This document shows, piece after piece, positions 4,821 to 28,087 of a stretch of DNA of 32,000 nt (position 1 is the first letter of the stretch; every line of letters starts with the position of its first letter). The notes beneath the pieces are model-generated. The model made no database searches, was not told where the DNA came from, and worked only from the letters and a program-made list of their open reading frames with translations. Source of the DNA: Candidatus Competibacteraceae bacterium. GTDB taxonomy: Bacteria; Pseudomonadota; Gammaproteobacteria; Competibacterales; Competibacteraceae. The stretch spans positions 83,634-115,633 of the forward strand of contig JADJQQ010000031.1 of assembly GCA_016712625.1 (NCBI GenBank), read 5' to 3'. A program made the position numbers and the translations under genes.

Positions 4821-4846
4821 CAACTTCTCCTGATCATCAAGGGGGC

Positions 4847-7647: not shown

Positions 7648-8052
7648 ATGCCGCCCTGCCAACGACTATTACTCGCCCCAGCATCCAAGGTGGATTTCTG
7701 CTGCCACATCACCCAAATAGACGGTAGGCGCCTGGAGCACTTGAACCACCGTGGCAAGCGCGAGGCGTTGCTCGCCCGGCAGGCCGGACAACCGGTTTCG
7801 GCTTTGCGAGCGCTGACACTGGACCGCTATATCAGCTCCTTGTTTGAAAGCGTGAACCGCGCGGGAAACACGCCTTGGATTTTGCCGGTGGGTGTCTTCC
7901 ATCGCCGCCGTCGCGGCGTGCCATTTTGTCCGCTATGCTTGCAAACCGAGGGGTTCTGTGGGCACTCTGAACGATGCGCCTGCTTGGTAGGGGCGCTCAA
8001 TCTGGCGGTGATCCAACTGGTAGCGGATCGCTTGCCGGTCGCGGCTTTTTAA
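7648..8052 (+). pseudogene. TniQ-like (Tn7/Tn5053-type transposition protein) gene fragment
   Basis: The ORF part from ATG 7648 contains ...NTPWILPVGVFHRRRRGVPFCPLCLQTEG..., resembling the R-x-x-FCP-x-CL zinc-ribbon signature of TniQ-domain proteins. The usual N-terminal helix is missing and the sequence is nonsense-like after the motif, so it looks decayed or truncated. Confidence 0.35.
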
Positions 8053-8252
8053 CTTTGGATACTGGCCGCGGGCCGCTTCCCATTCCGCCCCAGCCAATAA
8101 TCCGGCCCGCGGATCGGCGTAGCGCCAGCTTCGAAGGACTGGCGAATGGCTCGCAGAACCGCTTTCCGCTGACCTGGTCGGACCGCAAGGCCAAGATCAG
8201 CAAGATCGTCGGTTGGACAGTGTGCGAGGCATTCCCCCGCGGCAGCCACGCG

Positions 8253-9275
8253 ATGGCGGCAGCGGTTCTCGATTTCTGGACAAGCGACTTGGCTGCCCTG
8301 ACTGAGCGCCTGAAGAAAGGAACCCCTGGACTTGAGCCCACGCTGTGCGAGCGCCCAATTCTGAAGATCGGGCAACAGCTCATCGAGTTGCCTTGGATGT
8401 TCGGTCTGCAAAACAACAGTACCGCGGCCATCAACAATCTTCGCCGTCTCGGGGCGCGCCGTGGGGAGGCCAGACTCGAAACACGCCGCATTGAGGAGCG
8501 CCTCGGCAATCAGCTTGAGTCGCGCGGATTCCGCGTCGTGCTGAACTGGCTGCCTGAGGATGACGCGCGAGCTGGCGAGGTCGATCTGATCTGCGCACTT
8601 GAGCAAACGGTGCTGGTCATGGAGGTGAAATCGACCTTTATGCGGCAGTCCCAGCGCGATGCTTGGCTGCACCGTACAACGACGCTTCGCAAGGCGGGCC
8701 AACAGGTAAGGGACAAAGTCGCCGCCGTGCGTAGAGCTTTGGCACCGAATGACGCGCTTGCCCAAAAGCTGGGAATTCGTGGAGCAAGCGATCCGCTCAC
8801 TTCGCTCACAATGCATGGCTGGATCGTCGATACCTCAATCGAATGTGATCATCAAAGGTTCAGCGGTTTTCTCAAGGTGTCCTTGGGGGAAGTGCTGATC
8901 GCCTTGCGCGACGATCACTACCTTCTCAATGATCCCGAAGGCATCTTTTCCGGTCGCTTTCTGGAACCGGGCTTTGCGCCTCCGGAAAACCCTCGACAGC
9001 AGGCAACGCTTTACCCATCCGGTTTTTCTGCCAGCCAGTTTATTCGTGTGATCGAACAGGGGGTTTGCGGGGTAAGTAAAACCTGCGGTGATCGACCGAA
9101 TAATCAACCAAACCGAAAACGTTCCATCACCAGCTTGGCCTTTGATCTGGCGTTGCGGGCGCGGTGCGAGTTCTCAAACCGTATCGCTTACCCAGTACCT
9201 GCTTCGGAACTCCGAACCAGCACCATCAGATGCTCTCGTGCCCGCGTCGCTGCCACATATTTTTCAAATCGATGA
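8253..9275 (+). CDS. NERD-like / PD-(D/E)xK nuclease-fold protein (ORF open from 7974; ATG 8253), possibly an N-terminally truncated remnant
   Basis: GEVDLICALEQTVLVMEVKSTF gives a D...E-x-K core preceded by EERLGNQLESRGFRVVLNW, which is the NERD-type layout. GC is visibly lower than in flanking genes. The 3' end converges on and overlaps the helicase gene by 88 nt. Confidence 0.45.
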   Translation: MAAAVLDFWTSDLAALTERLKKGTPGLEPTLCERPILKIGQQLIELPWMFGLQNNSTAAINNLRRLGARRGEARLETRRIEERLGNQLESRGFRVVLNWLPEDDARAGEVDLICALEQTVLVMEVKSTFMRQSQRDAWLHRTTTLRKAGQQVRDKVAAVRRALAPNDALAQKLGIRGASDPLTSLTMHGWIVDTSIECDHQRFSGFLKVSLGEVLIALRDDHYLLNDPEGIFSGRFLEPGFAPPENPRQQATLYPSGFSASQFIRVIEQGVCGVSKTCGDRPNNQPNRKRSITSLAFDLALRARCEFSNRIAYPVPASELRTSTIRCSRARVAATYFSNR

Positions 9276-11247
9276 CGTACATCGCTGCGGTCTTCCTGCG
9301 TTTGCTCGAGGATCATTAAGACGGCACGAAACTCCAGTCCCTTGATGCGCTGCATGGAGCCAAGCCGCACGCCAGGCTCCGCCTGCCCAGGATCGGCTTG
9401 CCGGGGTTGCAATTCCAACGTGCTGATGCCGGCGGATTCGAGCGCGGTGCGAATGAATCCGACGCTGGGCGTGACGCAGATCTCATGACTGCCCAGTTTT
9501 CCCTGATCGAGCAAATGCTGAATCCAGGTCACGGCGTAGTGGGCCAAAATGGTGCGGTCGGAGAATGACCGAACCTGAGGCTCGGGACCGCGGAACACCG
9601 AACGGTCTCCCGTGGTATCGGCGCTCCCGCCATCCAGATCATCCACGGGGACGCCCGCCAGCAAGCCCTGCGCCCAGCGCCGGATCTGTTCGCTGGTTCG
9701 ATAATTGATCTTCAGCCGGCGGGAACGGCCGCGCACCTCGATCCCGGCGCGGCTCAAGGGGATGGCAAGGCTGTGGTAAATCCGTTGGTGACCATCGCCG
9801 ATCAGGCACAGCGGATCGGACGGGTTCCCAGTCGTCGGCGTCAAGGCGGCGATCAGCCGGAGTGCTTCGAGGCCAAAGTCCTGGAGTTCGTCGACCAGTA
9901 CGTGCCGATAGGCGGTAAAGCCGCCCCGCTCGACCACCAGCCGCGCCTGATGGACCAGCCCCTCGAAAGTCAGGCGATTGCGCTGGTGCAACAAACGGTT
10001 GAATTCCAGGAATACCGGCCAGAGCGTCCGCCGTTGTTTCCGGTCCAGGCGCGGGCGGCCGGACCGAACCGCCGTCAGGTAGCCTTCTTCGCTGTCGATG
10101 CCCATCGTATCGATCACCAGTTCATATTCGTCGCGAATGCAGTCCCGGTCGAATCCGGCGGGCAGGGGGCCAGCCAGCACCGTGCGCCACAGGTCCTCCC
10201 GTTCGGCGTCCTCGATCACCTTGCCCTGCCAGCCGCCTCGCAAACAGATGGTCCGGGCGAGTTGATGCAGATTGGTCACTTCGATCTTCCGGGCGGCGTC
10301 CGGCGCCAGCTTCCGGATCAATTGCTCCAGGGTGACGGACAGGGTGGTGGTGTACGTGGTCACCAGCACCCGATCCTTGGGATCGCTCAACTGGCGGGCG
10401 AGATGAACCGCCCGGTGCAGGAGGGCCACGGTTTTCCGGTGCCCGCCGCGCCGTTGATCTTGATTGGACCCTGGGTCCGCCATTCGACCAGTCGGCGCTG
10501 ATAGGGATGCAGGAAGACGCGCCATTCCTCAAGGTCCTGGGAGAGGATGGCTTTCAGTTGCTCTTCCCCTTCGATCAAGACCAGGTCCATATTCATGGCC
10601 TGATCCAGATGAGTGAAATCGCCCGGACCGGCCAGCGGCGGCGTTGGCTTGGCCGGTTCGCCGAGCATTTCAGCGATAGCCTCATCCAGGGAAAGACCGC
10701 AAATCACACCGTAAAGCACCTGGATGGCTTCCTTGGGCAGATAGTCCGCCACTTCCTGGAAGGCCCCATCATTTCGGATCGCGCGCACCGCCGGGATCAA
10801 GGCCCGGGGAGTCCCCGCCTGGAACAACTCCTCGTCGCTCAGTGTGTCCAGCGGGTAATGACCGGTGGGCGTGGGGTGTTTCCGCGCCTGGGCGTCCGCG
10901 GTGGCCTGGATTTCCTGAACATCGAAGACTTGCAGGACGCCGAGGGCTGGGTGGGCCTCAAAGCGTTTGTTCCGGCACCAGCGATACGCCTCATCATGGT
11001 GATCGATGTACATGAGCAGGAAGTTGTCGCCCTGTTCCGGCGCGATGACGACCGCCCGGTAATCGTCGCCGATGCGCGCGCTGCGGACCTTGGGATCGAC
11101 GGCTTCGGCGAAAGACTCCAGGTGAATGGAGGCTTGAGTGCTGTCGTCCTGAAACTTGCGGACAAACTCGAAAACCTTTTTCTGCACCCGGATCGGCAAC
11201 CGGCCAAAGTCCTTGAGCACCTCCCGTGACAACATCAGTTTCGCCAT
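9188..11247 (-). pseudogene. UvrD/Rep-like superfamily-1 helicase with an N-terminal RelE/ParE-toxin-like domain, disrupted by a 1-nt deletion inside the Walker A motif
   Basis: Two overlapping ORFs (10387..11448 and 9188..10525) join into one protein if one A is added to the run at 10432-10435. The observed GGA AAA CCG reads GTGK-PWPS. GGA AAA ACC GTG would restore INGAAGTGKTVALLHRAVHLA. Downstream helicase motifs are present (VLVDELQDFG, INYRTS, GLEFRAV). ATG 11247 has GGAGG 8 nt upstream and lies 4 nt after the upstream stop. Confidence 0.8.
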
Positions 11248-11251
11248 GCTC

Positions 11252-14200
11252 TTATCCTCCCACCGGCAGCATGGCGCTGAGCCATGCCGTTCCTCGGGTT
11301 TGAAGGTCGGCCAGGGTGACCACACGCCAGCCCGCCGCCTGCCATTCGGCAGCGAAAGCGGCCTGATCGCCCACCACAATGACAACCCCTCCGCTCTCGC
11401 CCTCCCTTTGGGTAGGGGAAGGCGCCTTGCGCCAAGCCAGCTCGGCAAAGCAGTCGCTGGCGGCGGACCGGTAGACCTCGACTTCCGGCAGGGTGACGCC
11501 CGCCGCGGCCAGTTGCGTGACTACCGGTTGCAAGGCGGGAACGACGGCTTGCCGGATCTCCCGCCAGCGCTCATCCAGCGCCGCCTCGCGCTCCAGCTCC
11601 AAATCCGGCGCCGTTCCCTGCGCTACCTCGGTAGCGACGAAGACCTTGAACTGCTGGCGGAACTGGAACAGGTTGACCAGCGCCAGAAAACGCCGCCAGC
11701 GGTCGCAAAATCCGGGTTGCGCTCTGTCCTCGGCGGAGTCGAGCAGACGCAGCCAGACCTGGATGCGGTCGGCCAGGCCATTAATCGCATCCGGGACCGA
11801 GGCCAGCGCCAACAGATCGTCACCCTCGGCAGCCAGTTTCTCAGACACGACCCACTGGCCTTCCGGGTTGACCGACGGCATGGCAACGCCGGCGCGGTCG
11901 CGCCACCGTTCGACCGTATCGATCAGGGCGGCTTGTCCAGAGGCTGCCCCACTGCCCGCCAGCAATTGCAGGGACAGCATCAGGCATTCATCGGCCAGCC
12001 GGGTCCAGCCGGGACGATCCGGCGCCAGCAAATACGCCTTCAACTGGCTGAAACCATCGGCGGTCGCGAGCCGAACGTCTGGATGCTGGACGCCCTGCTG
12101 TCGGGCCGCGGCGAGTCGAGGCGGCAGGATCCTGGCGACAATAGGAGGCTGAAGCAGTCGGATCGGCGTCTGCGGATCGGGATTCAGATCGTGCCAGGTG
12201 ATGTTCCATACGCCATAAAGCCCGCTGTCGAGGATGGCGCGCCGCTTCCTGAAGTCGTCGGGCAGGCGGCTGTCGGCCTGGCCCGGCCGGACATGCGGTT
12301 CGAAGCCGTCCGCGAAAATGGCGACGGGTCGGATCTCCGGATCGTCGGCGGTCAGCAGGAAATCCGGCTGGCAGGGTATCGCCACGCCTTGCTGCGGGCC
12401 GAGCTTGGGTTGCAGTTCCAGCGCCCAGAGCCGGGGATGAGCGCCGACCCGGAAGCGGAACCCGAGCGCGCCCTTGATGAGGGTTCGGGTCCATTCCCCC
12501 GGCTGACCGGCGATGTCCGTGGCGACAAATTCCCGCAACCGGTCCACCAGCCGCTTTTCCAGCAAGCTGCCGAACAGCGCTCTGGCGTCAACCTGGTCCA
12601 GGGTCTTGACGAGCGTTCGCCGCTGGCCGGCCTCGATCAGACGGCCGAGCAGCCGGATACCCCGCTCCCGGCTGATCTGGTCCGACCGGTACTGAAGATG
12701 ATAGGTGCGGATGCAGCGATAGCAGCCATCCGGATCATCCTGGCCGTGCCGGCAGGGCAGCAGGCGGCAACTGCACGACTCAAGGGCGTCCCGGGCACGG
12801 CGGAGCAGATCCATGATGCCTTCGCCGGGCAACCCGGACGCACCGCCGCCAGTATCCTGAAACAGCGTTTTCAGGAAACCGGTGCCCCCGGGAACCGCGT
12901 CCATCAGCACCAGGTAATGCCTGCGCAGGCCATCCTGGGGTTGCGGTACGCTCTGGGGCATCACCAGCAAATGGCCGGGATTGCCCTGGAACCGCAGCCG
13001 GAACCCCAGCACGAGGCAGGCGGTCAGCGTCGCGATATCGTCCTCGTCCACCTCGGGCAGCAGGATGCGAATCGCCTCGGAGCGCAGTTCCCGGTACAGG
13101 TAGAACGCTTCCCACTGGTAGGCATCGCCCGGCCGGCCCTCGCTTTGCATTTTTTCGGTCTTGCGCCGCCCGGAACAACTGCGCCGATGCCTGAGTTGGC
13201 TGCGGTCGCCGTCGCTGTCGACCGTCACCCCGCAATGGACGCAGGCCAGGAATCCGGTGTCCGAAACCTGCTGATCGACGCCGAACGGGAGGCTGCCGGG
13301 GATTTCGGCAAACCCGGTGTTGACCTGGCGCAGAGCCAGCGCCGCCCGGTATTCGATGCCGAAGGGTTCCATCTCGTCCGCCACCGCGCCACTCGGCCCA
13401 TCGAGGGTGGTGTCGAAGCTGTTCACGAGGCGATAGAAGCGCTGTTCCCGCTCGTCGGCCCGGTCGCCGGACAGGCTCTCGTAATGCTCCATATAGGAGA
13501 TCGCCTGGGACCGGGCGAACTCGAGAAACCGCTTGTGCTGGCTCCGATCCTGTTGTGAATGCGCGTCCGCGGCATAGCCGCACTGCGGGCAGACCGGGGA
13601 GGCATCGGGCCGGTTGAGTTCGTCGGTCCGCCGGATATGTCCGCATTCGCCGCAGATCGCCCACTGTTCCAGCAGGGGCTGGGCTGGCGCGCCCAGCGCA
13701 AGCTGCTGGATTTCGAACGCATGGCTGTGAGTGTAGAAGCGGTTGCGGGGGGCCAGTTCCCGCAACGCCGAACCTGCGCCCCGCACCAGGTCATAGGCCT
13801 GCAATGCGCCGTCATGCTCCCGACCCGGACCGGGCCGGCGACGATGGTCGTTGTAGAGCACGCCGTTGAAATGCACCCCCCGTTCGGGAAAGGCGTAGTT
13901 CGGCAGCAACCCGTATTCGATCAGGATTTCCAGGACCGTGGTGCGATCCAGGTGGGTCTGCCTCACGCGCAGAATCCGGTTTTCCTGTTCGATTTCCCGC
14001 AGACTTTCCCCGTCGCCGTTGACTTCGGCTTCTTTCTTCTGGTCGGTGAGCCGTTTCCGCGCATTGACGATCGCCTGGCGCTGGCGGTCGAAATCCCGGG
14101 CGGCGTGGTGAATGCGCTCCCGCAGCACTTCGGCGCGGCTTTCCCGCAGAAACCGTTCCCGGGTATCCTCGCGCACGTCGGCGCTGAACCGGGCCAGGAA

Positions 14201-17200
14201 CGCGCCCTGGAGCGCGGCTTCCCGCTGGGTCGCCCAGGCCAGGAGCGATGACAGCGGTCCCTGGCCGCTGTCCAGATCCTCGACCAGTTGCCGGCCGGTG
14301 GCGGGCAGCGCCTGGATCACGCCTTCTCGGACCGCGCTGTCGAAACAGAACGCCAGATACTGGCGCACCAGCACCGCGCTGGCGTCCAGCCAGCAGCCCG
14401 GCGGTTCGATTTGGCCGGCCAGCATTTCTCCCGGGCGGCCGAAGAAGAACAGATCGTGAGGCCGCTGATTGATCACCGCCAGCACCAGCGCCGTGCCGGT
14501 GCTGCGTCCGGCGCGGCCGATCCGTTGCAGGTAACTGGCGGTGGTGGGGGGGATCGAACACAGCAGGGTGCTGGACAGATCGCCGATATCGATGCCCATT
14601 TCCAGCGTCGAGGTGGCGGTCAGCACGTTCGGATCATCGGCATGGCCGCCGTGATTGAACTGATACTCGAGCGTTTCCCGTTCCTCGGTGGTCAGCAGAC
14701 CGGTATGCTCCTGCGCAAACACGCGGCGTAAAGCGCCTTTGCGATAGCGCTGCTGATAATAGATTTGCCGGTCGCTGGAAACGATCTGCTGGTAGCGACC
14801 CTGCTCGCCCTGGTAGGCGAGGGTGGGCGCGCCGTCCCAGTCGGCGGCCTCATGCCAGGGGCGATACAGCCGCTGGCCGTTGTCGTCGCACGCATATTGC
14901 ACACCGTCGGCCCACAGGCGCGCGCCGTCGGCGGACAGGGCGATCAGGCGCTGATGGCCGTCGCGCTGCACCTCTCGCAGCAGGCCCGATTCGCAACCCG
15001 CCTCCAGGAAGGCCCGAATCAGGTCCAGGATCGAGGTTTCCGGAGTATGGGTCAGCGCCAGCGCGCGCCGCGCCCAGACGATCTGCCAGGGGGATATCTG
15101 GCCCGGCCGGGAGGAAGCCAGCAGGTGATCGTGATCCCGGTGCGGCGCCAGGGCCATCAATCGGGGCCGATAACGTCCGGCGGGCGGGAACAGTTCCCGG
15201 CCAGGAACCACCTTGCCAAAGGGATATTTGCCCCAGTAACGCTGGCGGGCGTAACTGTCGAGATAGGGATGATAGAGACCTCCACGTTCGCGCTGGCGGT
15301 GCAGGATGCCGAGCAGCCAGCGGCGGAGCCGTCCAGCGCCGGTAGCGGTGTCCCCCACCACGAGCGACGGATCGATGGCCGGCAACCGCCGGCGCACGAG
15401 GGCCACGGTAGCCTCGATGACGGCCTCATCCCAGCCCAGGGTCGCGCTGGCATTACCTTCCAGGGTCCGGCCATGGGTCAGCATCAGGCTGAATTCGCTG
15501 CACGCTTCCCAGGCGAGCCGCTGTTCGATGGCGGTGTGCAACGGGGCATCCGGAGGCGTGTTCGGGGGTTGTTCGCGGTAGGCGAGATAGGGTGGGTATT
15601 CGCGCAGATCGGGCGGCAGCAGGGTCGAGATCGCCTCCCGGAGGCTGCCCGGGCGACCCGGAACCGGTTCGCTCCAGTAGTCCAGCAGGCGCGCGCCGAG
15701 GGTGGCGAGCGGCAGTCCGTCGGCTCCGGCCTCATCGATAACCCGTTGCAAGGCCGTGCGCAGGGTGAAATGAAAGGTGCGGGCCGAGAAGAAGCCGGCG
15801 CGGTGGCTGGCGTCCTGGACGCTGTCGGTAAAGGCCAACAGTTTGGGATCGTGGTTCAGCACCGACCCGAACAGTTCATCGATGGCGACGCTGCCCAGAG
15901 TGGCGGCCTGGGCGCCGATGAACATCAGGGAATCGTCGCTGCGGCAGTGGGGGCACTTGACCGCGCCCACCGTCTGCCCGGCGGCATGGGTGCGGGTGTC
16001 CCGGTTTATCCGGACGCGGAAGGTCGGGCTGCCGGTCAGCGGACAGGGTCCCGGTCCCAGGCGCAGGACCAGACTGTCTTTGGACAAATGCCATTCCGCG
16101 ATCGCCAGCGCGCCTTGGGCGGGCGCCGCGTCATCGTCGGGATACCAGGGACTGAGGGCGACCATCCACTTCGACATGGGCCGTTCGAATCCCCAGCCCT
16201 GATAAATCCGGGCGACGTCGGCGATCAACTGAAAACCCTGGACGCCGCGCGCCTGAATCGGATTCTCGGAATCGGGATCGACCATCGCCACCCAGACCGA
16301 CTCGCCGCATTCGGTGCAGTGGGCGACCGGCAGGATACGCTGATCGGGGCGCTGCTCATCCAGCCAGCCGAAGACCGGCTGGTCGCTGACCAGGCGGCCC
16401 AGGCGGCGCAGCTCCCGGATCCACAACTGCACCTGGGTCGGGGTCAGGGGCCGGGGTGGCAACAGTTCCGCCCCCTCACCCCCGCCTTCCCCCGCGAGGG
16501 GGGAGGAGGCCTTGCGGCGGGATTCCCGGGCCTGGGCGACCAGGGCGAAGAATGCCGACAACACTTCGCTACGCGCGCCAAACTCCGGAACGGCGCGCAG
16601 GGAGGGATCGGCGGTAGCCACTTGGGCGACCAGTTCGGACCAGGTCCGGGGACCGTCCCGGGTGGCTTCCAGCAGGCCGGCGAACAGTGGTTGCGACCGG
16701 ATCCACTGGCCCAGGGCCAGCGTCCAGCGCGTTGCCGGGGTGTCATCACCCGGCGGCAGCCGGCCGGGGAACAGCGTCGTCCCGTCGTCGGTCGGGAAGG
16801 CGGGCGCGCCGAACCGGGGAGCGATCCGGCGAGCGAATTCCGGGGCGGTTTCGCCCTCGCGCGCCCGGCTGTCGCCGGGAGCCGGAACCGGGGTGAAATC
16901 GGCCAGCGGCGCCCGCAGGATTTCCTCGACGGTGAGCCGGTCTTCGCCGATCACGCATTCCGGCTGGAGCGGTTCCTCGAACAGCCGCCCGGCGAAGTCG
17001 GCCAGGCGCGCCAGCGGATCCTGGGTGGTTTCGTCGTCCCCGGCGGCAATCGTGGCGCTGGTCCCGATGCAGCACAACTCTCCCTGGGCGATGTCCAGCC
17101 GTTCCTTGAGCCGGCGGATGAGACAGGCGACATCCGCCCCCTGCGCCCCGTCATAGGTGTGCAGTTCGTCGAGGACCAGATAGCGCAGGGTGCCTTTGCG

Positions 17201-17941
17201 GTTATAGCGCCAGATGGCCTTGTCCTTCGGGCGCATCAGCAGGAAGTCCAGCATTTTGTAGTTGGTCAGCAGAATGTCGGGCGGCTGGTCCTGCAACATT
17301 TGCTGGTCGGTAATGGCCCGCCAGGTCTTCTCCACCGCGCCGTCCAGCTCGATGGCCATCTCCCGGATGGCGCCTTCCTGGGTTCGGTTGGGATTGGCGG
17401 GATCGAAGCGGCCGGTGTAGAGGCCGACGCGAATTTTGGCTTTCCGCGTGGGTCCGGTTCCCCAGCACAGGGCCGGCGTCCGGAAGATTTCCTCGGCAAA
17501 GCGCCCGGCCTGATCGGCGGCCAGCGCGTTCATGGGATAGAGGATGATCGCCTTGATGCCTTTCCGGCCGGCGCGGTGTTCGCGATAGCAGTGATCGAGA
17601 ATCGGCACCTGAAAACACTCGGTTTTACCCGAGCCGGTGCCGGTGGTAATCAGGGTTGAGGCCGGCTCTTGTCCTTTCGAGGTCAGTCGCCGCCAGGCCA
17701 GCCATTGGTGACGGAAGGGGAGAAAGGGAACCGGCAGGTCGAAGAACCGGTTGCCGTGATCCGCGGCCGGGCGAAAGGGCCGGCGAATCTGTACCCACGG
17801 CCCCTTGAACAGGCCGTTTTCCGGGTCGTTGATGAAGCGCCGCAGGGCTTCTTCGTCGTCGCGCCGGCGAAAATTGAACGTGGCTTCCAGATAGTGGATA
17901 ACCTGCTGGCGAATGTCCTGAGCGAGGGTGGCGGGGAGCAT
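11252..17941 (-). CDS. 2229-aa DEAD/DEAH-box (Lhr/DrmA-like) helicase fused to a DUF1998-like (DrmB-like) zinc-ribbon module and a ~480-aa C-terminal extension
   Basis: Motifs read in the translation: TTGTGSGKTE (aa ~99-108), LVLDELHTYDG (DELH, ~256-264), GTSAT, LLAFTDSVQDASHRAG, TATSTLEMGIDIGDL and YLQRIGRAGR (~1108-1146). These are followed by LLPNYAFPERG, CGECG-x18-CPQCG, CVHCG and CSCRLLPC-x10-CYRC (~1345-1745), typical of DUF1998 modules. The C-terminal part contains QPDFLL...VAIFADGFEPH. Confidence 0.9.
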   Translation of the reverse strand: MLPATLAQDIRQQVIHYLEATFNFRRRDDEEALRRFINDPENGLFKGPWVQIRRPFRPAADHGNRFFDLPVPFLPFRHQWLAWRRLTSKGQEPASTLITTGTGSGKTECFQVPILDHCYREHRAGRKGIKAIILYPMNALAADQAGRFAEEIFRTPALCWGTGPTRKAKIRVGLYTGRFDPANPNRTQEGAIREMAIELDGAVEKTWRAITDQQMLQDQPPDILLTNYKMLDFLLMRPKDKAIWRYNRKGTLRYLVLDELHTYDGAQGADVACLIRRLKERLDIAQGELCCIGTSATIAAGDDETTQDPLARLADFAGRLFEEPLQPECVIGEDRLTVEEILRAPLADFTPVPAPGDSRAREGETAPEFARRIAPRFGAPAFPTDDGTTLFPGRLPPGDDTPATRWTLALGQWIRSQPLFAGLLEATRDGPRTWSELVAQVATADPSLRAVPEFGARSEVLSAFFALVAQARESRRKASSPLAGEGGGEGAELLPPRPLTPTQVQLWIRELRRLGRLVSDQPVFGWLDEQRPDQRILPVAHCTECGESVWVAMVDPDSENPIQARGVQGFQLIADVARIYQGWGFERPMSKWMVALSPWYPDDDAAPAQGALAIAEWHLSKDSLVLRLGPGPCPLTGSPTFRVRINRDTRTHAAGQTVGAVKCPHCRSDDSLMFIGAQAATLGSVAIDELFGSVLNHDPKLLAFTDSVQDASHRAGFFSARTFHFTLRTALQRVIDEAGADGLPLATLGARLLDYWSEPVPGRPGSLREAISTLLPPDLREYPPYLAYREQPPNTPPDAPLHTAIEQRLAWEACSEFSLMLTHGRTLEGNASATLGWDEAVIEATVALVRRRLPAIDPSLVVGDTATGAGRLRRWLLGILHRQRERGGLYHPYLDSYARQRYWGKYPFGKVVPGRELFPPAGRYRPRLMALAPHRDHDHLLASSRPGQISPWQIVWARRALALTHTPETSILDLIRAFLEAGCESGLLREVQRDGHQRLIALSADGARLWADGVQYACDDNGQRLYRPWHEAADWDGAPTLAYQGEQGRYQQIVSSDRQIYYQQRYRKGALRRVFAQEHTGLLTTEERETLEYQFNHGGHADDPNVLTATSTLEMGIDIGDLSSTLLCSIPPTTASYLQRIGRAGRSTGTALVLAVINQRPHDLFFFGRPGEMLAGQIEPPGCWLDASAVLVRQYLAFCFDSAVREGVIQALPATGRQLVEDLDSGQGPLSSLLAWATQREAALQGAFLARFSADVREDTRERFLRESRAEVLRERIHHAARDFDRQRQAIVNARKRLTDQKKEAEVNGDGESLREIEQENRILRVRQTHLDRTTVLEILIEYGLLPNYAFPERGVHFNGVLYNDHRRRPGPGREHDGALQAYDLVRGAGSALRELAPRNRFYTHSHAFEIQQLALGAPAQPLLEQWAICGECGHIRRTDELNRPDASPVCPQCGYAADAHSQQDRSQHKRFLEFARSQAISYMEHYESLSGDRADEREQRFYRLVNSFDTTLDGPSGAVADEMEPFGIEYRAALALRQVNTGFAEIPGSLPFGVDQQVSDTGFLACVHCGVTVDSDGDRSQLRHRRSCSGRRKTEKMQSEGRPGDAYQWEAFYLYRELRSEAIRILLPEVDEDDIATLTACLVLGFRLRFQGNPGHLLVMPQSVPQPQDGLRRHYLVLMDAVPGGTGFLKTLFQDTGGGASGLPGEGIMDLLRRARDALESCSCRLLPCRHGQDDPDGCYRCIRTYHLQYRSDQISRERGIRLLGRLIEAGQRRTLVKTLDQVDARALFGSLLEKRLVDRLREFVATDIAGQPGEWTRTLIKGALGFRFRVGAHPRLWALELQPKLGPQQGVAIPCQPDFLLTADDPEIRPVAIFADGFEPHVRPGQADSRLPDDFRKRRAILDSGLYGVWNITWHDLNPDPQTPIRLLQPPIVARILPPRLAAARQQGVQHPDVRLATADGFSQLKAYLLAPDRPGWTRLADECLMLSLQLLAGSGAASGQAALIDTVERWRDRAGVAMPSVNPEGQWVVSEKLAAEGDDLLALASVPDAINGLADRIQVWLRLLDSAEDRAQPGFCDRWRRFLALVNLFQFRQQFKVFVATEVAQGTAPDLELEREAALDERWREIRQAVVPALQPVVTQLAAAGVTLPEVEVYRSAASDCFAELAWRKAPSPTQREGESGGVVIVVGDQAAFAAEWQAAGWRVVTLADLQTRGTAWLSAMLPVGG

Positions 17942-17944: not shown

Positions 17945-18370
17945 TTATGGCCCATGATCCCAAGGATTGATCAACATTAACGGAGCCGCCGCAAAGTCTC
18001 GAACATTGCGCGTGACCAGAGCCAGGCCGTGCTCGACCGCCGTTGCCGCGATGATCGAATCGAAGGCCGCCATCGGCTTGCCCATCGCCTCCACTTGGGC
18101 GCACAGCTCGCCCCAGTAACCGGCCGTATCGCCGGTAAAGGGCAGAACGCGCTCGCCCAGGCTTGCCTGAAGCTGATCCAGCCAGACCAACAACTCGCTT
18201 TTGCGGCGGGAGACCGGCAATTTGGCAACGCCGCGGCGCAATTCCGCCAGCGTCATCGCTGCGACAAACAATTCGTTCTCCGCCCGCGCATCGACCCAGG
18301 CCAATACGGTGCTATTGGGGGCCGGTTTCACGAATTCCGACAACACGCAGGTATCGAGCAGATACTTCAC
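17945..18370 (-). CDS. vapC: PIN-domain toxin, VapC/FitB-like (141 aa, GTG start)
   Basis: VKYLLDTCVLSEF..., ...LAELRRG... and ...DSIIAATAVEHGLALVTRNVRDF supply the conserved PIN acidic residues. GTG 18370 overlaps the antitoxin stop in a GTGA junction. The stop TAA (17945-17947) lies only 3 nt before the ATG of the 2229-aa helicase. Confidence 0.85.
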   Translation of the reverse strand: MKYLLDTCVLSEFVKPAPNSTVLAWVDARAENELFVAAMTLAELRRGVAKLPVSRRKSELLVWLDQLQASLGERVLPFTGDTAGYWGELCAQVEAMGKPMAAFDSIIAATAVEHGLALVTRNVRDFAAAPLMLINPWDHGP

Positions 18371-18609
18371 CACTCGATCTCTCGCACCGGCTCGGCCGAG
18401 CGTTCCAGGTCCAGCGGTTCGCCGCGCGGGGCGTTCCGCAGCACCTCCCGCAACGAGAGTCCCGAGCACAGGCGGCGGAATTCGGGCGCGGCGATCACCA
18501 CCACGGCCTCGGCGCCGCGCCGGGTGACCAGTTGTGGACCTTCCGCCAGGGTGCGATCCACCAGTTCGCTGAATCGGCTTTTGGCTTCCTGTAACTGCCA
18601 GGTGTGCAT
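18367..18609 (-). CDS. Phd/YefM-type antitoxin (80 aa)
   Basis: MHTWQLQEAKSRFSELVDRTLAEGPQLVTRRGAEAVVVI is a typical Phd/YefM N-terminus. The 4-nt GTGA overlap with vapC is classic type II TA geometry. Confidence 0.8.
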   Translation of the reverse strand: MHTWQLQEAKSRFSELVDRTLAEGPQLVTRRGAEAVVVIAAPEFRRLCSGLSLREVLRNAPRGEPLDLERSAEPVREIEW

Positions 18610-18738
18610 GAGAGGCCTCGATGACTGAAATCAGAAACTAGTCAGTCCGGTCAGATTGATGGGATTGCACGCAACTGTCAACCCATCATCGGAAATCGGT
18701 TGCCAAAAAGACTCAGTAATCGTTTGGCTTTTTGCCAG

Positions 18739-19221
18739 TTACTCGCCGATGCTGGCCAGTACCTTGGCGACCAGCCCCGGACTCAGAAAAAGACCAGCAG
18801 CTTGAGCCTGCATGATCCAGGGGTGCGCCTGTTTAATGAGGCCCTGTTGTCGCGCCAGCAGAATGACGCCCAGGGTACCCACCAGTGGGACATGATGCGC
18901 ATGGGCGCAGGCGCGACCTGCTTGATCGTCGAGGATCGCGATACGGGAGTTTCCCAGGCAATGAGCGATGACTTGCGATTCGCCCGCGCCCAGTCCCCAG
19001 GCGGCAACCGTCGTCGGCAAAGGTAGATTCGGTACAGTTCGCCCCTTGGCCCATTGTTGGGTCGTAGCCGCCGATGGGTCTCGATGTAGTCCGGCGCCCA
19101 CTTCCGCAATCACCGCTGCTGGAATCAGGGCGGCGGGCGCCAGGTTTTCGAGAAAATCCAGCCGGTTAATCCGGGAAAGGATGATCAGTGGCGAGGCGTT
19201 CACCACCCAGGCGTCAGGCAC
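18739..19221 (-). CDS. DUF3368-type PIN-like putative toxin (160 aa)
   Basis: N-terminus AWVVNASPLIILSRINRLDFLENL... resembles the DUF3368/COG2405 PIN-like family. It overlaps its upstream UPF0175-like partner by 8 nt. Confidence 0.7.
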   Translation of the reverse strand: MPDAWVVNASPLIILSRINRLDFLENLAPAALIPAAVIAEVGAGLHRDPSAATTQQWAKGRTVPNLPLPTTVAAWGLGAGESQVIAHCLGNSRIAILDDQAGRACAHAHHVPLVGTLGVILLARQQGLIKQAHPWIMQAQAAGLFLSPGLVAKVLASIGE

Positions 19222-19465
19222 GGCAGACTTCCTCGATCATTTCTTCAGCCGAGTATTGGCCAACGGGGATACGCCGACGGGCGAGTTCATCAATAAATTC
19301 GGCCCGGGACAATCCAGCAATTTCAGCCGCTTTATCCTGGGCGAGCTGGCCTTGGGCATACCAGTGGCAGGTGGCCGCTAACAGAAGTTCTTGGGCAAAA
19401 TCGCCTGGCGCTTTGCGAAGAGCGCCATAGACATCATCGGGGAGATTCAAGGTGATCGTTGTCAT
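19214..19465 (-). CDS. UPF0175-family putative antitoxin (83 aa)
   Basis: Internal ATG 19465 with AAGGA upstream. MTTITLNLPDDVYGAL...AQGQLAQDKAAEIAGLSRAEFIDELARRRIP contains the HTH-like segment typical of UPF0175 partners of DUF3368 proteins. Confidence 0.7.
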   Translation of the reverse strand: MTTITLNLPDDVYGALRKAPGDFAQELLLAATCHWYAQGQLAQDKAAEIAGLSRAEFIDELARRRIPVGQYSAEEMIEEVCRA

Positions 19466-19577: not shown

Positions 19578-22500
19578 TCATTGCTGTCCCCTGAATACTT
19601 CATATGCCACCCGATAATCCTCTTCCCGGTCAACCGGGGTGAAGGGCGGGTAAAAGGTCCGGGTGACGGTCTGGCGGCCGTTGTCGCTGGGCCAACTTAC
19701 CGTGATCGGCTTGCCGCGATAGTTCAGGGCGGCGTCGCGGAAATCAGCGTTGGGCAACAGCAGTTTCAGGGCGTCGCGTAATTCCTTAGCCCCGGCGTCC
19801 TTGCGGGTGGTGGTCGGGAGGCGGCGACCGTGGGCGTCGAACAGGTCCTGCCGCTCGTAGCCGCGCATGACCGGGAACTGCACCTGATAAATGGTGATGA
19901 GCTGCTTGAGCGTCAGGCCGAGGGCGAGCGCGACCAGTACGTCAATTTCCAGCAGCGCCTGGCGGCGGGCGAAGTCAGTGCGGAGCGCCGAGCCACGCTG
20001 CCAGTCGGCGGTCAGGGCCGACCAAGGGGTTTCCAGGGCCAAGCGGGGGTCGGGGGAGGTAAAGGTGTCAGCGTTGTACGCCGGAGTAAAACAGCAGCGC
20101 CAAACATTGGCGTAATGCTGGGTTAGAGCCGCAAGTCGCAACAACCTCGCGCTGGCTAACTCTATGACTGGACCCTCGATCAAGGGCAATCCACGCAAAT
20201 CATCTTCATGAATATTCGAGCGTCCCTTGACCTTGATGATGAAATCGAAGGCAATTGAACTCGCTGCGGCAGAGAAAATGAGTAGCCATCGTTCATCGAT
20301 GATACTGACAAACCGGACTGCGTTGATTCCGACAATTCCCGGAGCCGACAAAGTTCCAATGAGTGTCCGCTCATTCGCTGGTTGACCCATCGCCCGAAGA
20401 GCAAACTTCGGAAAAGCTGATAATGGCCTCGGCAACCTCCGCATCGCGGGATCGTCCGGCACACCCTGCTTAATCTTCACCTCTTTGAATTTCTCTGCAA
20501 ACTCCGTGCGGTCGGGACGATTTTCGTGGGCGAGCAGCCAGGCAACAGCAGCATCAACCTCGCCTTGCCACTCCGTAAAGTAGCCGAATAGGCGGGCGGT
20601 GCGGGTGCCCGGCAGGTTCGGGTCGATGCCGTAGCGTTGGAGAGGTTCGCCCAGCAACGCCTCATAGGCCGGCACCGCATCATCAGCGACAGGCCAGAAC
20701 CCCGGAACGCTCGGTTTCGGCCATTCCGGGATTGCGGCATAAAACCGGGTCAGGTCGCCCTCCCGATCACCGGGCCGGTAGACGGCGCGCGGCAGGAAGT
20801 CATCGGGAATGGCCGTCAGGTCAATGTCGTCGTAATGACCGTTGGCGATGCAAGCCGTGCGCGGGGTCTTGTTGAACGGATTGCCGACGTAGAAGTGCGG
20901 GCCGGAAAGTACCCATTGATCCGCCGTCTGCGGCTGGAAACTGGGGTCTTCCTGCCGGGTAATGATGCCGTCGCGCTGGCTGTTGCTCTCGTGGAACATC
21001 TCGGTCGCCAGGTATTCGCCCTCCAAATCACCAAGCCGCCTGGGCGCATCGGCGAATTTCCTGAGCACGGCAAGTATTTCCCGGCTGTGTACTTGGGGCA
21101 AGCGGGCCTGTAAAGCGAGCGTGTCCGGCTTTTCAAACAGCCGGGCGAACAGGGCCAGTTCGGTTTCAGTGATGGTGACCAGACGTTGGCAGTGACCACG
21201 GGTTTCCCATTCGCCCGCATCGTTTTTGATGCCGGGGATGGGGTCTTCCGGACGGTCGTGGCGCTGCGACGCGGTAATCGTGATGGGATCAAAGGCGTTG
21301 AACAGGGCGACGAAGCGCGGCGTGACTGGCGCCCCCCGATAGATGTTGAGGCTGAACGCCATCACGTGGTGTACATCAGCGAACAGAATCTTCTCATTCT
21401 TCATCTGATAGTGAGCGAGCAGCCGCCGATAATACTGCTCGCGGAATTCCCCACCCTTCGGATCGTCGAACACGCCTTCGGGATGCAGCAGCCCAGCCAC
21501 CCCGACCGGCGACAAGAGGCCCCAACTCCGCTCGATGAAATTCTTGTAGAGGTTGGTCTGCACACCCACCAGCGCCGGGTAGAGCGCGTGGCTGTTGAGG
21601 AACGCGGACGCTCCCTCGCCCAGGGTGAACCGGTCCCGATAGGCCGCCCACCGCCCGGCCTCCTGCAACAGCCGGGACCGCGCTTCGTTATACCCGGCGC
21701 TCCTGGCCGCCCGCACCCCCAGCAGCGGCTGCCATTCCGCCAGCAGCGGCGCGTCGTTCCACGACACCTTGAGCCACGGCGGATTGCCGAACATCAGGTC
21801 AAAGCCGCGTGGAGTGTATTCATCTCCCCCCTTTCGCAAAGGGGGGAACTGAGTAGTTGATGTTGTGAGGGAGTAAGCTGGCCCCAGCACTTCGGGAAAC
21901 ACCAGCTCCCAGTGGTGAAACGGCTGCTCCTTAAGCACGTTGCGCCCGTGGGCGAACCACGGCACCAGCGCCGCCGCTTCCCCGGCATCCAGCACCCCGT
22001 CATCGAGGGTCGCGGCATACAGCGCCTCGACATTGAACGCCTCGCCTACCCGCATCTGCATCATCGAGCGGTTGGCTTCATTGAGCCGGGTCGTTTCCAG
22101 CAACAATTCCACGCTCGCCAGCCAGGCGTCCCGGCTCGGCAATTCCGTGGCCCAGTCCAGCGGCCAGAACCACAGTCCGCACCAGGCGTCCATGACCAGC
22201 TTCAGGCGCTGGAAGGGACCGGACTCCGCTTCCAGCTTCGCCTTCACCGCCTCCTGGCTGGCCAGGGTGGGGCCCGGCGCGAGCGCTGCCGCGCTTTCCG
22301 AAGGCGTCGGCCAGACGCTGGCGGTGCAGGCGGTTCGGGCCAGCGCGCCATGCCGTTCCGCCGCGTAGGCCGCCCACAATTCGTCGATGCGCGCCGACAA
22401 CGCCAGGGCCAGCTTCGCCTCCTGCCCGGTCCACTTCTTCCTGACCTGCTTTTTCTGCCACTCGGCGACGTGGGCGCATTCCGCGGGCCAGTGCGCCTTC

Positions 22501-27900: not shown

Positions 27901-27964
27901 TCACCAGCCATTCGGCATCGCGGCAGAGAACCCGCATGCCGGGGGCGATCACGGGTTGGGTCAT
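24956..27964 (-). CDS. SNF2-family helicase/translocase, DrmD-like (1002 aa from ATG 27964; ORF open to 28021)
   Basis: [15 protein letters not shown] (motif I), VVIDEAHNV (DEAH, motif II), LTATPHNG (III), [12 protein letters not shown] (V) and [12 protein letters not shown] (VI). The TGA stop at 24956-24958 overlaps the TTG and lies 2 nt before the ATG of the methylase gene. Confidence 0.9.
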
Positions 27965-28087
27965 CGGAAGCCTTTTTGTTGTTCTGTGACGCGCCTGACT
28001 ACGTTCGAGCAAGGCAGGCACTAGTATGTCTAAAACGGGCTAAGCGAAACAGATCATCGAAAACCGTGGAGGCGATGCCTTTGGCGG

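What the first reader, a model, noticed from the sequence alone, without database searches (positions are those of the whole stretch)
11255..13924. DrmB-like DUF1998 module and an extra ~480-aa C-terminal region with a Vsr/DUF559-like endonuclease signature fused to the helicase
In the 2229-aa product the helicase core ends near aa 1150. Aa ~1340-1750 carry DUF1998-type features: LLPNYAFPERG, CGECG...CPQCG, CVHCG, YLVLMDAVPGGTGFL and CSCRLLPC...CYRC. A further ~480 aa follow. Within them, PCQPDFLLTADDPEIRPVAIFADGFEPH (rc of 12293-12370) has the D-F...[hydrophobic]x-D-G-x-x-x-H layout of DUF559/Vsr-type PD-(D/E)xK domains. The position usually held by Glu is Phe/Ala here, so the domain may be inactive or divergent. 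Inference: a built-in nuclease-fold domain could replace the missing PLD nuclease (DrmC). The extreme C-terminus (VVIVVGDQAAFAAEWQAAGWRVVTLADL) looks like a small separate alpha/beta module.
Basis: partly seen in the sequence, partly recalled or inferred. Interest (0 to 1): 0.65.

Follow-up and report, generated by a model that had tools for sequence, protein, structure and literature searches.

The report
ARMADA helicase ArmC's built-in Vsr nuclease

Summary
The 2229-aa ORF (window 11252-17941, minus strand) has a helicase core, a DUF1998/MZB zinc module (aa 1642-1744) and 485 further residues.

The protein is not a DISARM DrmA-DrmB fusion. It is ArmC, the YprA-family helicase of an ARMADA type II system (Bell et al. 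2025). The operon reads armA (SNF2), armB (PglX-like methylase), armC, armD (RelE-UvrD). Each product is 33-36% identical over most or all of its length to the matching protein of the E. coli ATCC 8739 locus that was tested experimentally.

Aa 1789-1925 form a Vsr-type PD-(D/E)xK domain. E1795, Q1844, D1860, D1878, H1883 and D1896 are at least 99% conserved in 142 diverse relatives. They map onto Vsr E25, Q42, D51, H64, H69 and D97. The "missing Glu" is also Phe in Vsr itself, so it is no sign of inactivity.

The last ~110 aa fold as a degenerate Vsr-like module. About 190 aa in between stay unassigned.

ArmC's nuclease has not been tested by mutation or in vitro in the papers I read. Side observations: armD carries a 1-nt deletion in its Walker A motif, and the armB-armC junction is a recurrent slot for toxin-antitoxin and defence genes.

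The parts
24956..28021 (-). armA: SNF2/RapA-like (BrxHII/DrmD-like) helicase. The ORF is 1021 aa. The alignment to E. coli ArmA begins at M20, so the true start is probably near 27964.
   Evidence: Pfam SNF2-rel_dom and Helicase_C. Best PADLOC model is DrmD, 1.9e-84. 35% identity over 987 columns to E. coli ATCC 8739 ArmA.
19578..24959 (-). armB: PglX-like N6-adenine DNA methyltransferase (1793 aa) with an NPPW motif (FGNPPWLKV).
   Evidence: Pfam Eco57I. PADLOC type IIG REase-MTase and DrmMI models. 36% identity over 1450 columns to E. coli ArmB. Motif read.
18739..19450 (-). Inserted toxin-antitoxin pair 1: UPF0175 antitoxin (19214-19450) and a DUF3368 PIN-like toxin (18739-19221).
   Evidence: Pfam UPF0175 8e-23 and DUF3368 5e-8. 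No such genes lie between armB and armC in E. coli.
17945..18609 (-). Inserted toxin-antitoxin pair 2: Phd/YefM antitoxin (18367-18609) and a VapC-type PIN toxin (17945 to about 18370).
   Evidence: Pfam PhdYeFM_antitox 1.3e-13 and PIN 3.2e-14.
11252..17941 (-). armC: YprA-family DExH helicase-nuclease, 2229 aa. Walker A GSGKT starts at aa 103 and DELH at aa 258.
   Evidence: Pfam DEAD, Helicase_C and MZB. 33% identity over aa 1-1920 to E. coli ATCC 8739 ArmC aa 1-1804; only the helicase motifs align to E. coli DruE.
13019..13924 (-). ArmC aa 1340-1641: the region ahead of the zinc module, starting with the LLPNYAFPE motif and carrying extra CxxC pairs (CGECG/CPQCG, CVHCG). By analogy it is the OB-CON part of the YprA canopy with zinc-binding inserts.
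   Evidence: Motifs located. LLPNYAFPE is shared with E. coli ArmC. The domain scheme comes from Bell et al. and was not tested here.
12710..13018 (-). ArmC aa 1642-1744: DUF1998 / MrfA zinc-binding domain (MZB).
   Evidence: Pfam PF09369, 7.7e-10, above its gathering score.
12167..12577 (-). ArmC aa 1789-1925: Vsr-type PD-(D/E)xK nuclease domain, predicted active. Candidate catalytic residues and their codons: E1795 (12557-12559), Q1844 (12410-12412), D1860 (12362-12364), D1878 (12308-12310), H1883 (12293-12295), D1896 (12254-12256).
   Evidence: Conservation at least 99% in 142 cluster representatives. hhalign against an 11-sequence Vsr family profile: Prob 74%, P=2.8e-5, pairing D1860/D1878/H1883/D1896 with D51/H64/H69/D97. 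Pfam MTES_1575 matched by 10 of 45 members. AF2 model pLDDT 87, with PD-(D/E)xK and Vsr/DUF559 proteins as top Foldseek hits.
11588..12166 (-). ArmC aa 1926-2118: conserved middle domain of unassigned fold. It has five helices followed by an alpha/beta part, with D2068, N2090, Q2093 and F2094 near-invariant. The literature calls the corresponding region of E. coli ArmC an inactivated EEP domain.
   Evidence: AF2 secondary structure. Conservation in 76 sequences. No Pfam, PADLOC or PDB sequence match. No EEP protein among the top 50 Foldseek hits.
11255..11587 (-). ArmC aa 2119-2229: terminal alpha-beta-beta-beta-alpha-beta module (AELAW ... GDQ ... GW-R-V). Probably a degenerate, inactive Vsr-like domain, with no counterparts for H69 or D97.
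   Evidence: AF2 topology. Conservation is mostly W/P/G plus E2167. hhalign to Vsr matches only the last helix and strand, P=0.0016, Prob 16%.
9188..11247 (-). armD: RelE-like N-terminal domain fused to a UvrD/GajB-like helicase. A 1-nt deletion between window 10435 and 10436, inside the Walker A codons (GTGK|TV), splits it into two frames. Restoring the base gives 686 aa.
   Evidence: tblastn with E. coli ArmD: aa 7-266 in one frame and aa 262-646 in another, 35% identity. The 97%-identical MAG L002 reads GGGAAAACC where the window reads GGAAAACC. Pfam UvrD-helicase on the repaired protein.

Best explanation
The region is the C-terminal 890 residues of ArmC, the YprA-family helicase-nuclease of an ARMADA type II anti-phage operon (armA-armB-armC-armD), in a Competibacteraceae-like genome.

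Behind the helicase core lie, in order:
1. The DUF1998 zinc module (aa 1642-1744), preceded by the presumed OB-CON region.
2. A Vsr-type PD-(D/E)xK endonuclease domain (aa 1789-1925) that keeps the full Vsr catalytic set: E1795, Q1844, D1860, the backbone position A1877, D1878 in place of Vsr H64, H1883 and D1896.
3. A conserved ~190-aa domain of unassigned fold.
4. A degenerate Vsr-like end module.

Shown here: identity of the system, domain boundaries, conservation, and the mapping onto Vsr.

Inferred: ArmC translocates on phage DNA using ATP, and the Vsr-type domain uses Mg2+ to nick or cut the strand that the motor delivers. This would resemble the helicase-coupled PLD nuclease of its closest characterised relative, DruE. 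Also inferred: ArmA and ArmB (SNF2 motor plus adenine methylase) supply self/non-self discrimination or loading, and the inactive end module serves as a structural or DNA-binding partner of the active one.
For: System identity:
- ArmA, ArmB, ArmC and ArmD are 35%, 36%, 33% and 35% identical, over most or all of their length and in the same order, to the E. coli ATCC 8739 ARMADA II proteins. That locus was tested experimentally.
- armD follows armC within about 40 nt in most of the 75 (of 78) related loci that have it downstream.

Nuclease domain:
- The family has 986 cluster representatives.
- E1795, Q1844, D1860, D1878-G1879, H1883, D1896 and R1900 are at least 99% conserved in 142 representatives.
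- Profile-profile alignment to a Vsr family profile gives Prob 74% and P=2.8e-5, with D51, H64, H69 and D97 in register. The middle-domain control gives P=0.28.
- MTES_1575 is the only recurrent Pfam hit, in 10 of 45 members. A true DUF559 protein also hits that model.
- The AF2 model (pLDDT 87) has the alpha-beta-beta-beta-alpha-beta core. Its best structural neighbours are TnsA, BsoBI, DUF2726, a VSR homing endonuclease and DUF559.
- Vsr catalytic roles are taken from PMC4081097 and PMC2677866.

Literature:
- Bell et al. and the mBio 2026 paper describe ArmC as carrying a predicted active Vsr-type nuclease plus inactivated EEP and Vsr domains.
- ArmC Walker A/B mutants abolish defence.
- DruE is a helicase-coupled nuclease.
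Against: - No single structural or sequence hit to Vsr is strong. All Foldseek E-values exceed 0.02, and Vsr itself is not among the listed hits (the best 50 of each search).
- HMMER profiles find nothing in the PDB.
- hhalign covers only the 49-column core.
- Vsr's zinc site (C66, H71, C73, C117) is absent, and H64 is replaced by Asp.
- Nuclease activity of any ArmC has not been shown in the papers I read. Only its ATPase motifs were mutated.
- In this window armD is frameshifted in Walker A, and the E. coli K266A Walker A mutant loses protection. This particular copy may therefore not be functional, unless the deletion is an assembly error.
- The EEP assignment of the middle domain could not be reproduced.
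Confidence: 0.8

Rival explanations
1. The Vsr-like domain is a non-catalytic sensor or DNA-binding module, for example one that reads mismatched, modified or distorted DNA. The killing activity would come from another component, such as the RelE-like RNase domain of ArmD or an unlinked nuclease.
For: H64 of Vsr is replaced by Asp and the Vsr zinc site is missing. No ArmC nuclease mutant has been reported. Related YprA helicases of Druantia I/II carry inactivated Vsr domains.
Against: Six polar residues at the Vsr catalytic positions are at least 99% conserved across 142 representatives that are no more than ~50% identical to each other. That pattern is what catalytic sites show. The degenerate end domain of the same protein shows what loss of the site looks like: it has only structural invariants. 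D-G-x-x-x-H is also the DUF559 form of this motif.
Confidence: 0.12
2. The locus is a DISARM class 1 variant in which DrmA and DrmB are fused and a nuclease domain replaces DrmC.
For: DrmD, DrmMI and DrmA PADLOC models do match ArmA, ArmB and the helicase C-terminal lobe of ArmC. The literature notes the DISARM-ARMADA relationship.
Against: The best PADLOC hits for the helicase are DruE models (1e-89), while DrmA models reach only 1e-14 on ~80 residues. Alignment to E. coli ArmC runs over aa 1-1920. A RelE-UvrD armD gene, which the DISARM class 1 gene set listed (DrmD, DrmMI, DrmA, DrmB, DrmC) lacks, sits directly downstream here and in 75 of 78 relatives.
Confidence: 0.03
3. The protein is a Druantia DruE, as the top PADLOC model suggests.
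For: DruE3 and DruE1 are the best PADLOC models. The best PDB sequence hit is 9tu7, a 2108-aa DEAD/DEAH helicase that may be a DruE (its identity was not checked).
Against: PADLOC-DB v2.0.0 (2023) predates ARMADA. The best-scoring matched stretches reported for the three DruE3 models all lie in the N-terminal helicase region (aa 67-336); a DruE1 and a DruE2 model also match from aa ~1085-1100 to ~1750-1790. The C-terminal 480 aa match no PADLOC model. Against E. coli DruE only aa 74-318 and 1077-1225 align. The window's genes beside armC are armA, armB and armD homologues, not Druantia partner genes. Druantia III DruE carries PLD domains, not Vsr.
Confidence: 0.03
4. The operon in this window is a decaying, non-functional copy, so the nuclease domain is a relic regardless of what the family does.
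For: There is a 1-nt deletion inside the armD Walker A codons. Two toxin-antitoxin pairs separate armB from armC.
Against: armA, armB and armC are intact ORFs of 1021, 1793 and 2229 aa. The deletion lies in a G run next to an A run, a typical assembly-error site, and the 97%-identical MAG has the intact sequence. Inserts at the armB-armC junction occur in 28 of 43 evaluable relatives, so they are compatible with retention of the system. The EHEC study found a reduced requirement for ArmD.
Confidence: 0.15

Closest known systems
ArmC of ARMADA type II (E. coli NCTC 12900 / ATCC 8739 / EDL933; Bell et al. 2025, PMC12458937; mBio 2026, PMC13463889)
   Same: The four-gene order armA-armB-armC-armD is the same. 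Identity is 33% over aa 1-1920, including the Vsr-type domain. All candidate catalytic residues are shared (E. coli E1689, Q1732, D1748, D1768, H1773, D1780). The tail is nearly the same length (~480 vs ~470 aa) and shares conserved residues through to the end (D2068, N2090, Q2093, W2170, G2204-W2205).
   Different: The sequences are divergent (33-36% identity) and the host is a high-GC gammaproteobacterium of the Competibacteraceae. Two toxin-antitoxin pairs sit between armB and armC, where the E. coli genes overlap. armD is frameshifted. The locus lies next to a ThiF/JAB/E2/ParB cassette rather than in the tRNA-Phe/Leu islands described for E. coli.
E. coli Vsr (very short patch repair endonuclease; PDB 1CW0)
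   Same: The core motifs are shared: PDF, then hydrophobic-I-F-x-[HD]-G-x-x-x-H, then D-x-x-[KR]-R, then G-W/x-V. The counterparts of E25, Q42, D51, T63, H69 and D97 are conserved, and Phe stands at the position where DUF559 has Glu.
   Different: H64 is Asp. The Cys/His zinc site is absent. An extra three-stranded sheet and a 16-residue loop lie between the Q and the PDF strand. The domain is fused to a 1750-aa helicase rather than free-standing. Nothing suggests T:G mismatch specificity.
DUF559 (PF04480) and REase_MTES_1575 (PF18741) nuclease domains found at helicase C-termini
   Same: The D-F ... D-G-x-x-x-H ... D-x-x-R layout is shared. MTES_1575 is the only Pfam family hit repeatedly by the ArmC domain.
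   Different: All hits fall below the Pfam gathering score. The Glu of the E-x-D-G motif is missing. hhalign to a thin DUF559 profile gives P=0.06.
DruE of Druantia type III (helicase-coupled nuclease; 2026 cryo-EM preprints)
   Same: It belongs to the same YprA sub-branch and is also a large helicase plus DUF1998 with a C-terminal nuclease. It gives direct, non-abortive defence.
   Different: DruE has tandem PLD domains and works with DruH. ArmC has a Vsr-type domain and works with an SNF2 helicase, a methylase and a UvrD-like helicase.
DISARM class 1 (DrmD, DrmMI, DrmA, DrmB, DrmC)
   Same: It has an SNF2 helicase, a PglX-like methylase, and a YprA-type helicase with DUF1998.
   Different: In DISARM the helicase and the DUF1998 protein are separate genes and the nuclease is a separate PLD protein. 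DISARM has no armD equivalent.

Membership tests
ARMADA type II defence system | A YprA-family helicase (ArmC) of the ARMADA clade. | tested here: met
   BLASTP to E. coli ATCC 8739 ArmC gives 33% identity over aa 1-1920 vs 1-1804 (844 bits). Against E. coli DruE only two short helicase segments align. No phylogenetic tree was built.
ARMADA type II defence system | A BrxHII/RapA-like SNF2 helicase (ArmA) and a PglX-like methyltransferase (ArmB) upstream, on the same strand. | tested here: met
   35% identity over 987 columns to E. coli ArmA and 36% over 1450 columns to ArmB. Supporting Pfam and PADLOC hits.
ARMADA type II defence system | Strict order A-B-C followed by a RelE-fused GajB/UvrD-like helicase (ArmD). 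| tested here: met
   An armD homologue starts 4 nt after the armC stop and is 35% identical to E. coli ArmD. It is broken by a 1-nt deletion in Walker A. Two toxin-antitoxin pairs interrupt the B-C adjacency. The RelE-like assignment of the N-terminal part rests on homology to E. coli ArmD; Pfam gave no RelE hit.
ARMADA type II defence system | Protection against phage that depends on all four genes. | not testable with these tools
   Shown only for the E. coli loci.
Vsr-type PD-(D/E)xK nuclease | Catalytic-site residues equivalent to Vsr E25, Q42, D51, H69 and D97, plus the T63 backbone position and H64. | tested here: met
   E1795, Q1844, D1860, H1883 and D1896 are at least 99% conserved. 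hhalign places D51, H64, H69 and D97 in register. The E25 and Q42 equivalences come from motif inspection (SxLEKR, L-E-L-Q). H64 is replaced by invariant D1878.
Vsr-type PD-(D/E)xK nuclease | Significant sequence or profile similarity to the Vsr family. | tested here: inconclusive
   hhalign gives Prob 74% and P=2.8e-5 over 49 columns against an 11-sequence Vsr profile. There is no Pfam Vsr hit and no HMMER hit in the PDB.
Vsr-type PD-(D/E)xK nuclease | Restriction-endonuclease-like alpha-beta-beta-beta-alpha-beta fold. | tested here: inconclusive
   The AF2 model (pLDDT 87) has the expected order of elements. The best Foldseek hits are PD-(D/E)xK proteins: TnsA (prob 0.87), BsoBI (TM 0.51), DUF2726 (prob 0.96), a VSR homing endonuclease and DUF559. 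All have E>0.02, and Vsr chains are not listed.
Vsr-type PD-(D/E)xK nuclease | The structural zinc site of Vsr (C66, H71, C73, C117). | tested here: not met
   The corresponding stretch reads DGFEPHVRPG and has no Cys. This bears on membership in Vsr proper, not on the fold class.
Vsr-type PD-(D/E)xK nuclease | Mg2+-dependent DNA cleavage. | not testable with these tools
   No biochemical data on ArmC were found.
DUF559 (PF04480) | A match to the Pfam model, including the E-x-D-G-x-x-x-H motif. | tested here: not met
   No DUF559 hit in 45 members at E<=10. Phe stands at the Glu position. hhalign to two DUF559 proteins gives P=0.063.
DISARM class 1 | Separate DrmA and DrmB genes and a PLD nuclease DrmC. 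| tested here: not met
   The helicase and DUF1998 are one ORF. The ArmC tail gave no PLD match in Pfam at E<=10, and none of the window ORFs scanned gave one. Not every window ORF was scanned. DrmA models match only ~80 residues.
Inactivated EEP domain reported in ArmC type II tails | An EEP-like four-layer alpha/beta sandwich between the two Vsr-type domains. | tested here: inconclusive
   Aa 1926-2118 are conserved. No EEP protein appears among the top 50 Foldseek hits of the 480-aa model, and there is no Pfam hit.

The most novel reading that the evidence does not exclude
The armB-armC junction of ARMADA type II operons may be a dedicated, recurrent landing slot for small toxin-antitoxin and defence modules. 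In 28 of 43 evaluable relatives it holds 0.74-4.6 kb of same-strand cargo. The cargo includes PIN, ParE, MqsA, AbiE, GmrSD, AIPR, Schlafen-AlbA_2, HNH, DUF559 and kinase genes. This window holds two toxin-antitoxin pairs there. If so, ARMADA would act as a carrier operon whose cargo is co-transcribed with, and perhaps functionally coupled to, the ArmC helicase-nuclease. A second, smaller possibility is that the active and degenerate Vsr-type domains form an intramolecular pseudo-dimer that turns a Vsr-like nickase into a double-strand cutter.
Probability: 0.3. Interest if true: 0.55.

Novelty: new member of a known kind. Interest (0 to 1): 0.3.

Why it matters
For this window it settles the annotation. 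The locus is an ARMADA type II system on an integrative-element-like island in a Competibacteraceae-type genome. It is neither DISARM nor Druantia, although 2023-era defence-finder models label the helicase DruE.

For the field the gain is modest but concrete. The nuclease of ArmC is only predicted so far. This analysis names six near-invariant residues, maps them onto the Vsr active site, and gives their E. coli ArmC equivalents (E1689, Q1732, D1748, D1768, H1773, D1780). The effector hypothesis can therefore be tested directly in the existing E. coli assay.

The analysis also shows that the whole ~470-aa three-part tail is conserved across many phyla. Finally, it brings up a possible cargo slot inside the operon.

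Tried and rejected
- **Sequence searches of the tail.** Pfam, PADLOC and PDB searches with the 480-aa tail alone found nothing. HMMER profiles of the nuclease domain (11 and 45 sequences) against PDB sequences found only chance hits.
- **Foldseek on the whole tail.** The 480-aa model gave only weak matches to TnsA and EcoRV, so I remodelled the domain alone.
- **hhalign against E. coli Vsr alone.** Prob was 17-44%. It improved to 74% only after I built a Vsr family profile from ten plasmid-borne vsr genes.
- **hhalign against two DUF559 proteins.** These happened to lie in related loci. The result was P=0.063. The test has low power, because Vsr against the same profile gives P=0.45.
- **Terminal and middle domains against the active domain.** hhalign found no signal.
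- **EDL933 record.** NC_002655 is not in the E. coli collection. I used ATCC 8739 instead.
- **Druantia and DISARM labels.** Both rejected; see the rival explanations.
- **tRNA integration site.** No tRNA gene was found in the window.
- **First insert survey.** The first count of armB-armC gaps was contaminated by fragmented armC genes. I redid it with explicit armC starts and armB ends.
Full report
**1. What is in the sequence**

The window has one 2229-aa ORF on the minus strand, at 11252-17941. The nuclease-like motif PCQPDFLLTADDPEIRPVAIFADGFEPH is aa 1856-1883, which is window 12293-12376.

Pfam finds three domains:
- DEAD, from aa 78
- Helicase_C, aa 1076-1147
- MZB, the DUF1998 zinc module, aa 1642-1744

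So 485 residues follow the last recognised domain. On their own these residues match nothing in Pfam, PADLOC or PDB sequences.

**2. What system this is**

Two large genes lie upstream on the same strand.
- A SNF2/RapA-like helicase at 24956-28021.
- A 1793-aa PglX/type-IIG-like methyltransferase at 19578-24959, with an NPPW motif.

PADLOC (2023 models) labels the big helicase DruE, with DrmA models far behind.

Bell et al. 2025 (PMC12458937) describe ARMADA systems. Type II has a strict gene order: ArmA (BrxHII-like SNF2), ArmB (PglX-like methylase), ArmC (YprA-like helicase), ArmD (RelE-fused GajB/UvrD-like helicase). ArmC carries a predicted active Vsr-type nuclease at its C-terminus, often followed by inactivated EEP and Vsr domains. 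The mBio 2026 paper on EHEC repeats this description.

I fetched the E. coli ATCC 8739 locus, which was tested in that work (L083), and compared proteins:

| Protein | Identity to E. coli | Extent |
|---|---|---|
| ArmC | 33% | aa 1-1920 vs 1-1804 |
| ArmB | 36% | 1450 columns |
| ArmA | 35% | 987 columns |
| ArmD | 35% | downstream ORFs |

Against the neighbouring E. coli DruE only two short helicase segments align. The locus is therefore ARMADA type II. It is neither DISARM nor Druantia. The nearest genome hit is a Candidatus Contendobacter MAG at 97% identity.

**3. The nuclease domain**

Twelve homologues of the tail (~40% identity) came from the first protein search. An exhaustive profile search with aa 1789-1929 found 986 cluster representatives at E<=0.001. 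Nearly all complete ones are ~2000-2300 aa with the domain at about 1650-1900.

In 142 representatives the following are 97-100% conserved: S1792, E1795, Q1844, D1860, F1861, D1878, G1879, H1883, D1896, R1900 and D1918. W1912 is at 96%.

E. coli Vsr reads ...AIE25KRL...FRVQ42...PD51F...VIFT63H64GCFWH69...ERD97RRD...GWRV. Published work names D51, the T63 carbonyl, H64/H69, D97, E25 and Q42 as its catalytic-site residues (PMC4081097, PMC2677866). ArmC reads ...LLE1795KRL...LELQ1844...PD1860F...AIFA1877D1878GFEPH1883...PDD1896FRKRR...GVW.

A profile of the 142 domains aligned to a Vsr family profile gives Prob 74% and P=2.8e-5 over 49 columns. I built that profile from E. coli Vsr plus ten plasmid vsr genes. 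The alignment pairs D1860 with D51, D1878 with H64, H1883 with H69 and D1896 with D97. The middle-domain control gives P=0.28.

The only Pfam family hit repeatedly is REase_MTES_1575, in 10 of 45 members with a best E of 9e-4. A genuine DUF559 protein also hits that model.

The AF2 model of the domain (pLDDT 87, pTM 0.81) has a helix, a three-stranded sheet, then strand(PDF)-strand(IFxDG)-helix(DDxxKRR)-strand(VW). Its Foldseek neighbours are PD-(D/E)xK proteins:
- TnsA (prob 0.87)
- BsoBI (TM 0.51)
- phage DUF2726 proteins (prob 0.96)
- a VSR homing endonuclease
- DUF559

This is not a sign of decay, because Vsr itself has F62 at that position. There are two real differences from Vsr: Asp replaces H64, and the zinc site is lost.

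**4. The rest of the tail**

The tail is 451-485 aa long in 72 of 78 related loci with a complete gene end. It aligns to the end of E. coli ArmC in a 76-sequence alignment.

Aa 1926-2118 are conserved (D2068, N2090, Q2093, F2094), but I could not assign a fold. No EEP protein appears among the Foldseek hits of the 480-aa model, and I had no structure-prediction jobs left for a separate model.

Aa 2119-2229 are predicted as alpha-beta-beta-beta-alpha-beta. Their invariants are mostly structural: AE2167LAW, GxQ, G2204-W2205. They align to Vsr only over the last helix and strand (P=0.0016). This fits a degenerate Vsr-like module but does not prove one.

**5. How it probably works**

Shown: the architecture, the conservation and the orthology.

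From the literature:
- ARMADA II protects directly, without abortive infection.
- It needs the Walker motifs of ArmA and ArmC, the Walker A motif of ArmD and the NPPW motif of ArmB; the ArmD Walker B and ArmB GxG mutants lost activity only partly.
- The related DruE is a helicase-coupled nuclease that acts at ssDNA-duplex junctions.

Inferred: ArmC translocates on phage DNA and its Vsr-type domain cleaves the strand delivered to it. ArmA and ArmB discriminate or load. The inactive end module supports the active one. No ArmC nuclease mutant or in vitro assay has been reported in the papers I read.

**6. Other things seen**

- armD (9188-11247) has a single-base deletion between 10435 and 10436, inside the Walker A codons. 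The 97%-identical MAG has the intact sequence.
- Between armB and armC lie two toxin-antitoxin pairs: UPF0175 with DUF3368, and Phd/YefM with PIN.
- Among 43 related loci where both gene ends are visible, 28 carry 0.74-4.6 kb of same-strand cargo at this junction and 15 carry none. The cargo includes PIN, ParE, MqsA, DUF5615, AbiEi, AbiEii-type ATPases, GmrSD, AIPR, Schlafen-AlbA_2, HNH, DUF559, a Ser/Thr kinase and IrrE-HTH.
- The left flank encodes ThiF, JAB/DUF2016, a prokaryotic E2 and ParB. I read this as an integrative-element context, from prior knowledge rather than from a tool result.

**7. Verdict**

It is wrong in frame (DISARM) and in its doubt about activity. The kind has been described since 2025, so this is a new, divergent member of a known kind. 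Interest is low to moderate. The residue map and the cargo-slot observation are the parts that add something.

Noticed in passing
window 17945-19450 (minus strand); related loci L005-L081: Two toxin-antitoxin pairs (UPF0175 + DUF3368; Phd/YefM + PIN) sit between armB and armC. In 28 of 43 evaluable related loci the same junction holds 0.74-4.6 kb of same-strand cargo. The cargo includes PIN, ParE, MqsA, DUF5615, AbiEi, AbiEii-type AAA_21 ATPases, GmrSD, AIPR, Schlafen-AlbA_2, HNH, DUF559, a Ser/Thr kinase and IrrE-HTH. In E. coli the two genes overlap. This looks like a recurrent insertion slot inside the operon.
   Followed up: partly
window 10435/10436, within armD (9188-11247, minus strand): A single-base deletion (GGG to GG, next to an A run) inside the Walker A codons (GTGK|TV) splits the RelE-UvrD helicase gene into two frames. 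A 97%-identical MAG (L002) has the intact sequence. It is either an assembly error or an inactivating mutation.
   Followed up: yes
window 1004-7209 (minus strand): The genes here are ThiF-like E1 (1004-1780), DUF2016 + JAB (1844-2503), prokaryotic E2 family D (2475-3206) and a 598-aa ParB-like protein (5413-7209). This is a PRTRC-like cassette, which I know from prior knowledge as typical of integrative and conjugative elements. It suggests the ARMADA operon rides on a mobile island.
   Followed up: partly
window 7974-9275 (plus strand): A 433-aa ORF on the opposite strand lies in a lower-GC patch (0.59-0.60 vs ~0.65). It has a weak NERD (nuclease-related domain) hit (E=0.0014, below the gathering score) and a D...E-x-K-like motif (EVDLICALEQTVLVMEVKS).
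   Followed up: no
window 28000-32000: GC drops from ~0.65 to 0.48-0.55 directly upstream of armA. This stretch contains a PIN-like ORF (28605-28934) and short fragmentary ORFs. It may be the island boundary or another inserted segment. No tRNA gene is present in the window.
   Followed up: no
L052:4355-4774 and L076:4135-4575: Free-standing DUF559 nuclease genes (Pfam 2.5e-30 for L052; L076 assigned by 37% identity to it in tblastn) lie in the armB-armC slot of two relatives (Scytonema and Desulfoferrobacter). They sit next to an ArmC that already carries a Vsr-class domain.
   Followed up: partly
L002 and L004, upstream of armC: In the two closest relatives (97% and 78% identity in the ArmC tail), about 3.9 kb separate the armC start from the UPF0175/DUF3368 pair, against 1.2 kb in the window. 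The junction cargo therefore differs even between near-identical operons.
   Followed up: no
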